A DNA stretch of 64,000 nucleotides from Escherichia coli O127:H6 str. E2348/69 (GTDB lineage Bacteria; Pseudomonadota; Gammaproteobacteria; Enterobacterales; Enterobacteriaceae): assembly GCF_000026545.1 (NCBI RefSeq), contig NC_011601.1; one strand, 5' to 3'. A program made the position numbers. Positions 42,001-56,014 of the stretch are shown piece after piece. Numbering within the stretch: position 1 is the stretch's first letter; each line of letters begins with the position of its first letter.

Positions 42001-45000
42001 AGCTTGATCAAGCAGTTATCCTGATTGCAGCCTGTAAAGCCATTGTCACTAACGATTCTGGCCTGATGCACGTTGCGGCGGCGCTCAATCGTCCGCTGGT
42101 TGCCCTGTATGGTCCGAGTAGCCCGGACTTCACACCGCCGCTATCCCATAAAGCGCGTGTGATCCGCCTGATTACCGGCTATCACAAAGTGCGTAAAGGT
42201 GACGCTGCGGAGGGTTATCACCAGAGCTTGATCGACATTACTCCCCAGCGCGTACTGGAAGAACTCAACGCGCTATTGTTACAAGAGGAAGCCTGACGGA
42301 TGCGGGTTTTGATCGTTAAAACATCGTCGATGGGCGATGTTCTCCATACGTTGCCCGCACTCACTGATGCCCAGCAGGCAATCCCGGGGATTAAGTTTGA
42401 CTGGGTGGTGGAAGAAGGGTTCGCACAGATTCCTTCCTGGCACGCCGCCGTTGAGCGAGTTATTCCTGTGGCAATACGTCGCTGGCGTAAAGCCTGGTTC
42501 TCGGCCCCCATAAAAGCTGAACGGAAAGCGTTTCGTGAAGCGCTACAAGCAGAGAACTATGACGCAATTATCGACGCTCAGGGGCTGGTAAAAAGCGCGG
42601 CGCTGGTGACGCGTCTGGCGCATGGCGTAAAGCATGGAATGGACTGGCAAACCGCTCGCGAACCTTTAGCCAGCCTGTTTTACAATCGTAAGCATCATAT
42701 TGCAAAACAGCAGCACGCCGTAGAACGCACCCGCGAACTGTTTGCCAAAAGTCTGGGCTATAGCAAACCGCAAACCCAGGGCGATTATGCTATCGCACAG
42801 CATTTCCTGACGAACCTGCCTACAGATGCTGGCGAATATGCCGTATTTCTTCATGCAACAACCCGAGATGATAAACACTGGCCGGAAGAACACTGGCGAG
42901 AATTGATTGGTTTACTGGCTGATTCAGGAATACGGATTAAACTTCCGTGGGGCGCGCCGCATGAGGAAGAACGGGCGAAACGACTGGCGGAAGGATTTGC
43001 TTATGTTGAAGTATTGCCGAAGATGAGTCTGGAAGGCGTTGCCCGCGTACTGGCCGGGGCTAAATTTGTAGTGTCGGTGGATACGGGGTTAAGCCATTTA
43101 ACGGCGGCACTGGATAGACCCAATATCACGGTTTATGGACCTACCGATCCGGGATTAATTGGTGGGTATGGGAAGAATCAGATGGTTTGTAGGGCTCCGG
43201 ATAAAGATCTTGCTCATCTGGCTGCAGAAACAGTATTTAAAAAAATCAATCCTGATTAACACGTTCTATATTATTAAGATGGTGGAGAAGCAATGTTAAC
43301 AGCCTCGCTGGCGCTGCGTAATAAAGAGAATTGGAAACCATACTGGAATAGAGTGTTGGTATTCCTTTTTATTGCGACCTTTTTCCTTGATGGTATTACC
43401 CGTTATAAACATATCATATCTGTACTAATGATTATTACGGTAATTTATCAAGTTTTCCGTGCTCCAGGGACATTCAAAGAGCTCTACAAAAATAATCTTT
43501 TTTATAGTGTCTTGGCTCTGTCACTCATTCTTTTATATGCCACTTTCATATCACCAGATCTGAAAATAAGTTTTAAAGAATTCAGTAACACGGTGCTAAA
43601 AGGATTTTTGGCATATAGTTTACTTATACCCGTATTATTAAAAGATGAAGATAATGAAAGCATCGGTAAAGTTGTACTATACTCATTAGTTACCGGGCTT
43701 GGGTTACGTTGTCTTGTTGAAATTATTTCTTATATTCAGGATTATAATAAAGGAATAATGCCATTTTCGACCTATGAACATCGTAGTATTTCCGACTCAA
43801 TGGTGTTTCTATTTCCAGCATTATTAAACCTTTGGCTTATCAAGAAAACCTCTTATAAAATAATATTCATAATTTTTAGCGCAGTTTTCTTGTTTCTGCT
43901 ATTAGGAACGCTCTCTCGTGGTGCATGGCTGGCAGTATTCATAGTGACTCTACTATGGTTAATCTTAAATCGTCAGTGGAAATTATTGATGCTGACCTCT
44001 ATCGTTATTTCTGTTGCAGCAACTTGCGTATTTACCTTTAAAGGTGATCATACCGATGAAGATAGGCTTATTTATAAACTTCAACAGACCGACAGTTCTT
44101 ATCGCTATACCAATGGTACACAAGGTACAGCATGGACATTAATTATGGAGAACCCGCTTAAGGGATATGGCTATGGCGATGATATTTACCATGCAATATA
44201 CAATAAGCGTGTCGTAGATTTTCCATCATGGACTTTCAGACAATCCATTGGACCACACAACATTATTTTATCAATTTGGTTTGCAGCAGGTTTAGCTGGG
44301 CTACTCGCTTTACTTTATCTGTATGGCTCTATTATCAAAGAAACAGCTAACGCAACATTTAAAAAAGTGGTGGTCACTCCTTATAATGGTCAATTACTGC
44401 TATTTTTAACTCTTGTTGGTTTTTATATTATCCGAGGTAATTTCGAGGAAGTTGATCTCAAACCAATTGGCTTGATTGTTGGTTTGCTGTTAGCTATGCG
44501 GAATAAATAAAAAAAAGCCTGCCTGACATTGAGTTCAGGCAGGCTCTTCAAATCAAATAATTTTTAACCAAACCAGTCTTGCATTTGTGCCTCAAAACAC
44601 TGAGTTACATGTTCCCAGCTATATTTTGAAAAAACGAATTTCTGGGCATTTTCGGCAATTTGTGCTTTATTACTGTCTGCTAAGACCCGGTTGATATCAG
44701 AGAGAATGCTTTCAGACGTCATAGGTTCTGCAAGGTGATATCCTGTTATTCCTTCCAGAACAAACTCGTTTATCCCACCTTTTTGACTTGCAAGAACAGG
44801 TTTACCAGCCGCCATCGCTTCAACTGCTACCATGCAAAAAGCTTCTTCTACCTGGGAAGGAACAACAACTAAATCTGCTAAGCGGTAATATTTATGCATC
44901 TGCTCCGGTGGCTGCCCACCCGCCATAATACATTGCGCGCCAATAGCTTTCGCTTCATCCAGAACCTTATTCTGATATTCAGCTTTTTCACCTTTTTTAC

Positions 45001-54000: not shown

Positions 54001-56014
54001 GCGGGTAACTCATGGTTGTCTGCTTCACCAACGATTCAAGTCCCAATGGCGTCAGCACGGATAAGTTACTTTCCACCACATTTCCACCCTGCAACGGCAC
54101 CAAATGAGTGAAACTATTACGCCAAAAAGCAGACTGCCGATGATGATAATCCTGGGAAATTTTCACACGGGCATTTAATAAGCGAACCAGTATAGCAACC
54201 ATCCATTGATCGGTAAGATTAACGATAAGGTCATACTTATTGGCACGTAATACCTTGATGAGATGAAAAAAGTTGGCAATTTTTTCTGAGGCTTTTGCTT
54301 TTTTATTTTTTATGCCGTAGAGCGCGTTAATCTCTGGATTTTCAGACAGGATCGGGATGGTGTCCTGATAAAGCAGCACATCGATTTTTGCGTCAGGGTA
54401 ATTTTTTTTCAGCGAACTAATGACGGGAGTAGTTAATAACATATCCCCATGAAAACGCATCTTAATGAGCAAAATTCTTCGAAATGGCTTATCCACAAGT
54501 AACTCTTTTTGTTGAGATTATCCGATTAAGGTGAAGCAGAAAAAGCACGCTACCGCCCCAGGCTCAACAGCTACCTGAATACTGATACCGCACTGATATT
54601 GACGCGCTAGTGTATCACTTCTTTCGCGGCAATCCGACCCGAATGATTTTTAAGCACATTGTTGATTTTCAATAAAGAAATCAATCAAATAAAATCATTA
54701 GCAACCATATTCTTTTTACTGTTGCTCTGCGATTCCTTCCTGCACGTACTGCAGAAATCAATGAATCGCATAAAAATACAAAAAAAGTATAGATGTTCAG
54801 CAAGAATTGGCGGGTAAATTGCTATTTAAGTCAAAAACGGGAAAAGTAATGGTAAAGCCACAGCTAAATACATAGAATCCCCAGCACATCCATAAGTCAG
54901 CTATTTACTATGCTCGAATTGCTTTACACCGCCCTTCTCTACCTTATTCAGCCGCTGATCTGGATACGGCTCTGGGTGCGCGGACGTAAGGCTCCGGCCT
55001 ATCGAAAACGCTGGGGTGAACGTTACGGTTTTTACCGCCATCCGCTAAAACCAGGCGGCATTATGCTGCACTCCGTCTCCGTCGGTGAAACTCTGGCGGC
55101 GATCCCGTTGGTGCGCGCACTGCGTCATCGTTATCCTGATTTACCGATTACCGTAACAACCATGACTCCAACCGGTTCGGAGCGCGTACAATCGGCTTTC
55201 GGGAAGGATGTTCAGCACGTTTATCTGCCGTATGACCTGCCCGATGCACTCAACCGTTTCCTGAATAAAGTCGACCCTAAACTGGTGTTGATTATGGAAA
55301 CTGAACTATGGCCTAACCTGATTGCGGCGCTACATAAACGTAAAATTCCGCTGGTGATCGCTAACGCGCGACTCTCTGCCCGCTCGGCCGCAGGTTATGC
55401 CAAACTGGGTAAATTCGTCCGCCGCTTGCTGCGTCGTATTACGCTGATTGCCGCCCAAAATGAAGAAGATGGTGCACGTTTTGTGGCGCTGGGCGCAAAA
55501 AATAATCAGGTGACCGTTACCGGTAGCCTGAAATTCGATATTTCTGTAACGCCGCAGTTGGCTGCTAAAGCAGTGACGCTGCGCCGCCAGTGGGCACCAC
55601 ACCGCCCGGTATGGATTGCCACCAGCACTCACGAAGGCGAAGAGAGTGTGGTGATCGCCGCACATCAGGCATTGTTACAGCAATTCCCGAATTTATTGCT
55701 CATCCTGGTACCCCGTCATCCAGAACGCTTCCCGGATGCGATTAACCTTGTCCGCCAGGCTGGACTAAGCTATATCACACGATCTTCAGGGGAAGTCCCC
55801 TCCACCAGCACGCAGGTTGTGGTTGGCGATACGATGGGCGAGTTGATGTTACTGTACGGCATTGCCGATCTCGCCTTTGTTGGCGGTTCACTGGTTGAAC
55901 GTGGTGGGCATAATCCGCTGGAAGCGGCCGCACACGCTATTCCGGTATTGATGGGGCCGCATACGTTTAACTTTAAAGACATTTGCGCGCGGCTGGAGCA
56001 GGCAAGCGGGCTGA

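What the first reader, a model, noticed from the sequence alone, without database searches (positions are those of the whole stretch)
44564..54557. LPS core cluster is K-12 type, with an ops element in the waaQ leader
The gene content and order waaQ-G-P-S-B-O-J-Y-Z-U opposite hldD-waaF-C-L, with protein lengths matching K-12 values for WaaY, WaaJ, WaaO, WaaB, WaaS, WaaP and WaaG, indicate a K-12-type outer core rather than R1-R4. An exact ops motif (GGCGGTAGCGTG) sits at 54546-54557 on the operon strand. This is expected biology but places the strain's LPS core type.
Basis: partly seen in the sequence, partly recalled or inferred. Interest (0 to 1): 0.2.

Follow-up and report, generated by a model that had tools for sequence, protein, structure and literature searches.

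The report
K-12/R2 hybrid LPS core locus
This is the lipopolysaccharide core gene cluster of the EPEC strain E2348/69: mostly K-12-like, but its last sugar transferase and its O-antigen ligase are of the R2 type, a hybrid already published in 2025, so the "K-12 core" call is wrong in the part that matters and the rest is ordinary.

Summary
The window is 100% identical to E. coli E2348/69 (EPEC O127:H6). The ops motif is real and unique. It lies at 54546-54557 on the minus strand, at the 3' end of an Rfam JUMPstart match (55.2 bits; gathering score 35), 49 nt upstream of waaQ.

The gene order and the seven K-12-matching protein lengths are confirmed. The last operon gene is the exception. ORF 44564-45706 (380 aa) is not waaU. 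It is unrelated to K-12 WaaU and scores 720 bits (cut-off 618) on the NCBIfam LPS N-acetylglucosaminyltransferase model, which makes it WaaK. It is 91% identical to canonical R2 WaaK. WaaL (405 aa) is 26% identical to K-12 WaaL and 94% to R2 WaaL.

A segment of about 2.6 kb (43199 to about 45835) is R2-like. It sits in a backbone 99% identical to a K-12-type locus in strain AVS0093, including waaS.

The predicted product is an R2-type outer core with terminal GlcNAc, an R2-type ligase and K-12-type inner-core options (WaaS, WaaZ). This is already known and of low interest.

The parts
40308..41240 (+). hldD (rfaD), ADP-glyceromanno-heptose 6-epimerase; first gene of the hldD-waaF-waaC-waaL operon
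   Evidence: 310 aa, 100% identical to K-12; RefSeq annotation of the identical E2348/69 record
41250..42296 (+). waaF, heptosyltransferase II
   Evidence: 348 aa, 99.1% identical to K-12
42300..43259 (+). waaC, heptosyltransferase I. Its last 61 nt (from 43199) belong to the R2-like segment.
   Evidence: 319 aa, 95% identical to K-12. Homology to K-12 and AVS0093 ends at 43198, and the alignment shows the switch to R2-like sequence there.
43293..44510 (+). waaL, O-antigen ligase of the R2/Salmonella kind (not the K-12 allele)
   Evidence: 405 aa. NCBIfam NF012031 RfaL 661.6 bits (cut-off 277). Identity: 94.3% canonical R2, 94.8% E. whittamii, 66% Salmonella, 26% K-12. K-12 WaaL does not hit the model. 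Pfam Wzy_C.
44512..44549 (.). Terminator-like hairpin between the convergent waaL and waaK genes; probable end of both operons
   Evidence: 15-pair stem (7 G-C) followed by a T run, reported on the minus strand. Function is inferred.
44564..45706 (-). waaK, LPS alpha-1,2-N-acetylglucosaminyltransferase (family GT4).
   Evidence: 380 aa. NCBIfam NF012028 720.3 bits (cut-off 618). Pfam Glycos_transf_1. Identity: 91% canonical R2, 94% E. whittamii, 90% E. albertii, 73% Salmonella. The E288/E296 pair (E-x7-E spacing) is invariant in the five-sequence alignment. No similarity to K-12 WaaU.
43199..45835 (.). R2-like segment that replaces the waaU-waaL region of a K-12-type locus. It holds the 3' end of waaC, waaL, the terminator hairpin, waaK and the last ~12 codons of waaZ. 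The right edge is accurate to about +/-30 nt.
   Evidence: No homology to K-12 or AVS0093 between 43198 and ~45801-45807. Junction alignments. 91.0% nt to canonical R2, 93.2% to E. whittamii, 85.9% to E. albertii. At least 99% identical in only 4 of 5426 complete E. coli genomes.
45794..46567 (-). waaZ, Kdo III transferase. K-12-like except for the last ~12 codons; shorter (257 aa) than K-12 (283) and R2 (269).
   Evidence: NCBIfam NF007333 538 bits (cut-off 473); TIGR04437 covers profile positions 1-251 of 252, so the conserved domain is complete. 94% identical to K-12. Junction alignment.
46641..47339 (-). waaY, heptose II kinase
   Evidence: 232 aa, 97.8% identical to K-12; NCBIfam NF007684
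47357..48373 (-). waaJ (also named waaR), alpha-1,2-glucosyltransferase that adds Glc III
   Evidence: 338 aa, 96.2% identical to K-12 WaaJ; RefSeq name rfaJ
48413..49432 (-). waaO, alpha-1,3-glucosyltransferase that adds Glc II
   Evidence: 339 aa, 96.8% identical to K-12; NCBIfam NF011718 574 bits
49432..50511 (-). waaB, alpha-1,6-galactosyltransferase
   Evidence: 359 aa, 93% identical to K-12 and 100% to AVS0093; NCBIfam NF007396
50555..51490 (-). waaS, the K-12-type inner-core (rhamnose) transferase. Canonical R2 carries a GT8 gene (wabA) at this position.
   Evidence: 311 aa, 93.9% identical to K-12 and 99% to AVS0093. NCBIfam NF053598 WaaS/CpsH. The R2 locus L003 has a 326-aa GT8 protein here. 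GC content 25.9%.
51527..52324 (-). waaP, heptose I kinase
   Evidence: 265 aa, 89.8% identical to K-12; NCBIfam NF011703
52317..53441 (-). waaG, glucosyltransferase I that adds Glc I
   Evidence: 374 aa, 90.1% identical to K-12; RefSeq annotation
53438..54496 (-). waaQ, heptosyltransferase III; first gene of the long operon. This is the majority E. coli allele, not the K-12 lab-strain allele.
   Evidence: 352 aa; NCBIfam NF007742 713 bits. 71.5% identical to K-12. waaQ plus leader is at least 95% identical in 4468 of 5424 genomes, and K-12 strains are at 74%.
54546..54584 (-). JUMPstart element with the 12-nt ops site GGCGGTAGCGTG at its 3' end (54546-54557); recruitment site for the anti-terminator RfaH
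   Evidence: Exact, unique 12-mer. Rfam RF01707 55.2 bits against a gathering score of 35, full length 1-38. Invariant in K-12 and R2 leaders while the flanking leader has diverged.
54531..54602 (-). Counterpart of the K-12 small RNA RirA (5' UTR of waaQ, contains ops)
   Evidence: 67 of 73 positions match the RirA annotated in MG1655. Expression was not tested.
54910..56187 (+). waaA, Kdo transferase, divergent from waaQ
   Evidence: 425 aa, 100% identical to K-12

Best explanation
The region is the chromosomal waa (LPS core) locus of EPEC E2348/69, in the published 'K-12/R2 hybrid' form.

Transcription (inferred from K-12). A ten-gene operon, waaQ-G-P-S-B-O-J-Y-Z-K, is read from the waaQ leader. 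RNA polymerase pauses at the ops site inside the JUMPstart element and loads RfaH, which carries transcription through the long, AT-rich operon to the hairpin at 44512-44549.

Enzyme roles (assigned by close orthology to characterised K-12 and R2 enzymes):
- WaaC, WaaF and WaaQ add the three heptoses.
- WaaP and WaaY phosphorylate them.
- WaaG, WaaO and WaaJ(R) build the Glc I-Glc II-Glc III chain.
- WaaB adds the galactose side branch.
- WaaK, in the position that WaaU holds in K-12, caps Glc III with alpha-1,2-GlcNAc.
- The R2-type WaaL then ligates the O127 antigen.
- WaaS and WaaZ allow the K-12-style Kdo III/rhamnose inner-core glycoforms.

Origin (inferred). The locus looks like a K-12-type locus of the kind seen in AVS0093 in which about 2.6 kb (the 3' end of waaC, waaL, waaK and the 3' end of waaZ) was exchanged by homologous recombination. 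The incoming segment is R2-like, and its donor is not canonical E. coli R2.
For: - Identity of the window: 100% to NZ_CP059840.2, E2348/69.
- WaaK and WaaL: NCBIfam equivalog/subfamily hits above the curated cut-offs. K-12 WaaU and WaaL hit neither model. Identities are 91-94% to R2 and E. whittamii orthologues, against 22-26% (noise) to the K-12 proteins.
- Backbone: 99.0% nt identity to AVS0093 over 45807-61461, with abrupt loss of homology at 43198 and at ~45807. Junction alignments.
- waaS is present where canonical R2 has a GT8 gene.
- Typing primers: the K-12 waaU primer is absent, and the R2 waaK primer is present with 1 mismatch.
- Publication: Trofimova et al. [quoted passage not shown] Their per-gene identities equal mine: waaQ 0.71, waaS 0.94.
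- ops and JUMPstart.
- RfaH, ops, RirA, WaaS and WaaZ roles: review PMC6358824.
- No strong terminator-like site on the operon strand before 44549.
Against: - No chemical structure of the E2348/69 core was found in the papers I could read, so the GlcNAc cap and the absence of Hep IV are predictions.
- WaaK here is 9% diverged from the characterised R2 enzyme, so acceptor or donor specificity could differ slightly.
- WaaZ lacks 12-26 C-terminal residues relative to R2 and K-12.
- The direction of the exchange (acquired or ancestral) is not settled. E. whittamii carries the same waaS + waaK arrangement collinearly.
- The main text of Trofimova et al. is inconsistent about waaL in these strains. 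The results section says it is 100% identical to K-12; the discussion says it is R2-like. My data support the discussion.
Confidence: 0.9

Rival explanations
1. One reading: a plain K-12-type core locus, waaQ-G-P-S-B-O-J-Y-Z-U, making the K-12 outer core with Hep IV.
For: Gene order, waaS and seven protein lengths match K-12. waaS to waaZ are 93-98% identical in protein to K-12. The K-12 waaY typing primer matches exactly.
Against: The last gene is unrelated to WaaU and is a GT4 WaaK. WaaL is 26% identical to K-12 WaaL. Megablast hits to K-12-type genomes cover only waaZ-waaY of the 43293-47339 query, not waaL or waaK. The K-12 waaU primer is absent.
Confidence: 0.02
2. A canonical R2 core locus. 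This is what typing by waaL allele alone would report.
For: waaK and waaL are R2 orthologues at 91% and 94% protein identity. The scheme of PMC8715443 types by waaL allele only. The outer-core transferase set (G, B, O, J/R, K) equals that of R2.
Against: waaS occupies the place of the R2 GT8 gene wabA. The shared genes are closer to K-12-type loci (96-99% nt) than to R2 (84-88% nt). The segment is only 91% nt identical to all 496 canonical R2 genomes. The R2 waaZ primer has 3 mismatches.
Confidence: 0.06
3. Not a recent hybrid: the waaS + waaK + R2-type waaL arrangement is an old Escherichia core type. The K-12 type (waaU/waaL swapped in) and canonical R2 (wabA swapped in) would derive from it, and the E2348/69 lineage retained or re-acquired it.
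For: The species-representative genome of E. whittamii has the same gene order, collinear with the window at 91.8% nt over 42071-52712 with no break. Its segment is the closest found, at 93.2%.
Against: The flanks are 99% identical to a K-12-type strain right up to sharp breakpoints. The arrangement is found in only 4 of 5426 complete E. coli genomes. Both observations fit a local replacement in the E2348/69 lineage better. The two views are compatible if the donor carried the old arrangement.
Confidence: 0.25

Closest known systems
K-12/R2 hybrid waa locus (Trofimova, Westerman & Jaschke 2025, Microb Genom 11:001506; PMC13293308)
   Same: It is the same locus. [quoted passage not shown] Their per-gene identities to MG1655 match mine. 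The link they draw to the O127 antigen fits this strain.
   Different: Nothing differs in the sequence. This analysis adds the breakpoints (43198/43199 and about 45800-45840). It also adds that waaL is R2-like and not K-12, that the waaQ allele is the majority non-K-12 allele, and that E. whittamii shares the arrangement.
E. coli K-12 core locus (MG1655, b3619-b3633)
   Same: Same order for hldD-waaF-C and waaQ-G-P-S-B-O-J-Y-Z. waaS and waaZ are present. The ops/JUMPstart element and a RirA-like leader are conserved.
   Different: waaU is replaced by waaK and the waaL allele is unrelated. The WaaZ C-terminus differs. waaQ is 71% and waaP/waaG about 90% identical in protein. htrL is absent upstream of hldD.
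Canonical E. coli R2 core locus (for example MFDS1001074 and ECOR11); Heinrichs et al. 1998, J Biol Chem 273:8849, cited through PMC13293308
   Same: waaK and the R2-type waaL lie at the same position and orientation, with the same outer-core transferase set.
   Different: R2 has the GT8 gene wabA where this locus has waaS. The shared genes are 84-88% nt identical and the waaL-waaK segment 91%.
Salmonella enterica waa locus (waaK/waaL)
   Same: WaaK, WaaL and WaaZ orthologues are present in the same order. The NCBIfam models that the window proteins hit are the same length as them to within one residue (380 and 404 positions).
   Different: Identity is only 73% (WaaK), 66% (WaaL) and 54-64% (WaaO, J, B). 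There is no waaS.
RfaH/ops anti-termination system and JUMPstart (Rfam RF01707); RirA small RNA
   Same: Exact 12-nt ops and a full-length JUMPstart lie in the 5' UTR of the first gene of a long polysaccharide operon. 67 of 73 positions match K-12 RirA. Roles are taken from PMC6358824.
   Different: Nothing structural differs. The leader outside the conserved ~150-nt core differs from K-12, at 60% identity over 54601-54800.

Membership tests
E. coli K-12 LPS core type | waaU (heptosyltransferase IV, family GT9) as the last gene of the waaQ operon | tested here: not met
   The 380-aa product is a GT4 WaaK. It gives no tblastn hit to the waaU region of MG1655 or AVS0093. The typing primer K12-F in waaU is absent at up to 4 mismatches.
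E. coli K-12 LPS core type | K-12 allele of the ligase gene waaL | tested here: not met
   26% identity over 371 aligned residues. No tblastn hit at E < 1e-5. Homology to K-12 DNA stops at 43198.
E. coli K-12 LPS core type | waaS between waaP and waaB, and the order waaQ-G-P-S-B-O-J-Y-Z | tested here: met
   WaaS is 93.9% identical to K-12 and the order is identical.
E. coli R2 LPS core type | waaK (alpha-1,2-GlcNAc transferase) as the last operon gene | tested here: met
   NF012028 720 bits, above the cut-off of 618. 91% identical to the canonical R2 protein. Primer R2-F matches with 1 mismatch.
E. coli R2 LPS core type | R2 allele of waaL | tested here: met
   94.3% protein identity to the R2 locus L003; NF012031 661 bits.
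E. coli R2 LPS core type | GT8 gene (wabA) between waaP and waaB. The gene content of canonical R2 is taken from Trofimova 2025 and from genomes with the R2 arrangement. | tested here: not met
   The window has waaS there. L003 has a 326-aa Glyco_transf_8 protein that is 23% identical.
K-12/R2 hybrid core (Trofimova et al. 2025) | K-12 gene set including waaS, with waaU replaced by a waaK about 90% nt identical to R2, and an R2-like waaL | tested here: met
   The strain itself is listed in Table S15.
R1, R3 and R4 core types | Type-specific genes waaV/waaW (R1), waaD/waaJ-R3 (R3) and waaX/waaW (R4), detected with the published typing primers | tested here: not met
   Primers R1-F, R1R4-R, R3-R and R4-F have no match at up to 4 mismatches. 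R3-F gives only a 3-mismatch hit inside waaK. All ten ORFs are accounted for by other orthologues.
RfaH-dependent (ops/JUMPstart) operon | ops sequence GGCGGTAGnnTG on the non-template strand in the 5' UTR, within a JUMPstart element | tested here: met
   Exact 12-mer at 54546-54557(-), 49 nt upstream of the waaQ start. Rfam RF01707 55.2 bits against 35.
RfaH-dependent (ops/JUMPstart) operon | Expression of distal genes depends on RfaH | not testable with these tools
   Needs an rfaH or ops mutant. Inferred from the K-12 literature.
RirA small RNA | A 73-nt transcript from the waaQ 5' UTR that contains ops and binds RfaH | tested here: inconclusive
   Sequence counterpart at 54531-54602(-), 67 of 73 positions identical and including ops. 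No Rfam model matched, and neither transcription nor binding can be tested here.

The most novel reading that the evidence does not exclude
The E2348/69 arrangement (waaS + waaK + R2-type waaL) may be a distinct, old Escherichia core type rather than a chance hybrid. It is native to E. whittamii. It would give a sixth core chemotype: an R2 outer core on a K-12-style inner core that can switch glycoforms (Kdo III/rhamnose). The K-12 and canonical R2 types would both derive from it. Because E2348/69 is the prototype EPEC strain, its LPS core structure would need to be redrawn in work that assumes one of the five classical types.
Probability: 0.25. Interest if true: 0.35.

Novelty: already known. 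Interest (0 to 1): 0.15.

Why it matters
The core type decides three things: which O antigens the ligase can attach, which phages and anti-core antibodies recognise rough or semi-rough cells, and how strains are binned in typing surveys.

E2348/69 is the reference EPEC strain. Calling its core "K-12" would predict the wrong terminal sugar (Hep IV instead of GlcNAc) and the wrong ligase. Three typing approaches give three different answers for this locus:
- Gene order and protein lengths give K-12.
- The waaL allele gives R2.
- Paired primers give hybrid or untypable.

This is a useful caution for automated typing. Beyond that, the locus and its ops element are textbook biology and are already published.

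Tried and rejected
- I tried to read Heinrichs et al. 1998 (PubMed 9535865) and Amor et al. 2000 (PMC97256), to check the gene content of the R2 prototype F632 and any experimental typing of O127 strains. Neither is held. The statement that canonical R2 carries wabA instead of waaS therefore rests on Trofimova 2025 and on the R2-arrangement genomes examined here (L003, L007).
- I searched for papers on the E2348/69 core structure and found none beyond the 2025 typing paper.
- I considered Salmonella as the direct donor of waaK-waaL and rejected it, at 73% and 66% protein identity.
- I considered canonical E. coli R2 as the donor and rejected it as the immediate source. All 496 R2 genomes are 90-95% identical (best 91.3%), and none is closer.
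- The E. whittamii type genome is the closest found (93.2%) but is still too distant to be the donor.
- The promoter scan over the region gave no more sites than shuffled sequence (39 found, 38.2 expected), so I assign no promoter from it.
- The 8-nt ops core occurs 6 times in the window against 1.25 expected. Only one copy has the 12-nt form or a JUMPstart context. I have not shown what the other five are. Codon composition (Gly-Gly-Ser) is my guess, and I did not check their positions against genes.

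
Full report
**1. What is there**

The window is E. coli E2348/69 (EPEC O127:H6). The 4-kb test segment and a 22-kb stretch around it are 100% identical to NZ_CP059840.2.

Ten ORFs lie head to tail on the minus strand between 54496 and 44564. They face hldD-waaF-waaC-waaL on the plus strand (40308-44510), and waaA diverges from waaQ at 54910. Spacing in the operon is tight, from overlaps of 1, 4 and 8 nt to gaps of 17-87 nt. The outer-core part is AT-rich: 26-40% GC from waaL through waaS, against 49.7% for the whole window.

**2. The ops element**

- GGCGGTAGCGTG occurs once, at 54546-54557 on the minus strand. None of 100 shuffles gave a match.
- It is the only copy of the relaxed form GGCGGTAGnnTG.
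- It forms the 3' end of a full-length Rfam JUMPstart match at 54546-54584(-): 55.2 bits against a gathering score of 35. This is the only Rfam match in all 64 kb.
- It lies 49 nt upstream of the GTG start of waaQ.
- About 150 nt around it are nearly invariant between this strain, K-12 and an R2 strain, while the rest of the leader has diverged.
- The stretch 54531-54602(-) matches 67 of the 73 nt of the RirA small RNA annotated in MG1655.

The roles of ops, RfaH and RirA are taken from the review PMC6358824. They were not tested here. This part of the finding is correct and ordinary.

**3. The core type**

| Protein | Window | K-12 |
|---|---|---|
| Last operon gene | 380 aa | 357 aa (WaaU) |
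| WaaL | 405 aa | 419 aa |
| WaaZ | 257 aa | 283 aa |

The 380-aa protein:
- It shows no real similarity to WaaU. A global alignment gives 22% over 149 residues, and tblastn hits only the paralogous GT4 gene waaG.
- It scores 720 bits on the NCBIfam model for LPS N-acetylglucosaminyltransferase, above the curated cut-off of 618.
- It is a Pfam Glycos_transf_1 (GT4) protein. Residues E288 and E296, spaced E-x7-E, are invariant in the five-sequence alignment.
- Identity to WaaK orthologues is 91% in a canonical R2 E. coli, 94% in E. whittamii, 90% in E. albertii and 73% in Salmonella.

WaaL:
- It scores 661 bits (cut-off 277) on the RfaL model NF012031.
- It is 94% identical to R2 WaaL and 26% to K-12 WaaL.
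- As a control, K-12 WaaU and WaaL hit neither model.

Published typing primers agree. The K-12 primer in waaU is absent. The R2 primer in waaK matches with one mismatch. No R1, R3 or R4 primer pair is present.

**4. The mosaic**

- Against MG1655, DNA homology runs up to 43198 and resumes at about 45801.
- Against strain AVS0093, whose locus is K-12-type (waaU and K-12-like waaL), the right arm 45807-61461 is 99.0% identical and the left arm again ends at 43198.
- Junction alignments put the left break 61 nt before the waaC stop. They put the right break within the last ~12 codons of waaZ, at about 45800-45840.
- The exchanged ~2.6 kb holds the waaC tail, waaL, a 15-pair terminator-like hairpin (44512-44549), waaK and the waaZ tail.
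- This segment is at least 99% identical in only 4 of 5426 complete E. coli genomes. Three are O127:H6 assemblies. The fourth is L1PEag1, which also carries an ISAs1 element between waaZ and waaY.
- It is 90-95% identical (best 91.3%) to all 496 genomes that carry the canonical R2 version.
- Canonical R2 also differs by having a GT8 gene where this locus has waaS. Its shared genes are only 84-88% nt identical to the window.
- The locus is therefore neither K-12 nor canonical R2.

**5. It is already published**

Trofimova, Westerman and Jaschke (Microb Genom 2025; PMC13293308) describe eight strains with K-12 genes in which waaU is replaced by a waaK about 90% nt identical to R2. [quoted passage not shown] Their discussion links the hybrid to O127. 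Their per-gene identities to MG1655 match mine, for example waaQ 0.71 and waaS 0.94.

Their results text says that waaL in these strains is 100% K-12, while their discussion says it is R2-like. My data support the second statement. A scheme that types by waaL allele alone (PMC8715443) would call this strain R2.

**6. How it most likely works**

Shown by sequence: the gene set, its intactness, the ops/JUMPstart element and the terminator-like hairpin.

Inferred from orthology to characterised enzymes and from the K-12 literature:
- RfaH is loaded at ops and carries RNA polymerase through the ten-gene operon.
- WaaG, WaaO and WaaJ(R) build Glc I-II-III, and WaaB adds Gal.
- WaaK caps Glc III with alpha-1,2-GlcNAc, which in R2 is needed for the ligase to act (stated in PMC13293308, citing Heinrichs 1998).
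- The R2-type WaaL attaches the O127 antigen.
- WaaS and WaaZ permit the K-12-style Kdo III/rhamnose glycoforms. The conserved WaaZ domain is complete despite the shorter tail.

**7. Origin**

One scan of species-representative genomes found that E. whittamii Sa2BVA5 has the same order: waaP-S-B-O-J-Y-Z-K facing waaL-waaC. It is collinear with the window at 91.8% nt, and its segment is the closest relative found, at 93.2%. E. albertii and E. coli E69 lack waaS.

So the waaS + waaK arrangement is native in a sister species. The E2348/69 segment did not come recently from canonical E. coli R2. The sharp breakpoints in a 99%-identical K-12-type background, together with the rarity of the arrangement in E. 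coli, favour a local replacement in this lineage. The donor is unknown, and the direction of the exchange is not proven.

**8. Verdict**

The backbone is K-12-like and the ops element is correct. The feature is real, ordinary and already described, so interest is low.

Noticed in passing
window 61462-62759: About 1.3 kb between slmA and pyrE is absent from strain AVS0093. It encodes a 323-aa reverse transcriptase on the minus strand (61504-62475; YCDD motif; Pfam RVT_1, 78 bits). From memory, this is the chromosomal site described for retron Ec107. The msr/msd RNA would then lie at 62476-62759. No Rfam family matched there.
   Followed up: partly
window 40095-40307: htrL, which lies between kbl and hldD in K-12 (b3618), is absent here. 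kbl (38898-40094, minus strand) is followed directly by hldD.
   Followed up: no
window 53438-54909: The waaQ gene and leader of this strain are the majority E. coli allele, at least 95% identical in 4468 of 5424 genomes. The K-12 laboratory allele is the minority form, at 74% nt and 71% protein identity. 956 genomes fall in the 60-80% band. waaP and waaG are also only 76-82% nt identical to K-12.
   Followed up: partly
window 434, 16987, 26618, 59625, 62212: The 8-nt ops core GGCGGTAG occurs 6 times in the window against 1.25 expected from shuffles, and none of 100 shuffles reached 6. Five copies lack the 12-nt form and any JUMPstart context. Codon composition (GGC GGT AGC = Gly-Gly-Ser) is a possible cause, but I did not check their positions against genes.
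   Followed up: no
L012 (Escherichia whittamii Sa2BVA5) 389-10409: The type genome of E. whittamii carries waaP-S-B-O-J-Y-Z-K facing waaL-waaC. This is the same 'hybrid' arrangement as E2348/69, collinear at 91.8% nt.
   Followed up: partly
L020 (E. coli L1PEag1) 13439-14575: The only non-O127:H6 complete genome with the same segment (99.7% identical) has an ISAs1 transposase inserted between waaZ and waaY. This insertion separates waaZ and waaK from the rest of the operon.
   Followed up: no
L005, L006, L019 (metagenome bins labelled Bacillota, Flavihumibacter, Coprosoma): Short contigs (2.7-3.9 kb) in bins assigned to unrelated phyla encode WaaK at 76-91% identity to the window protein. This looks like Escherichia contamination of those bins.
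   Followed up: no
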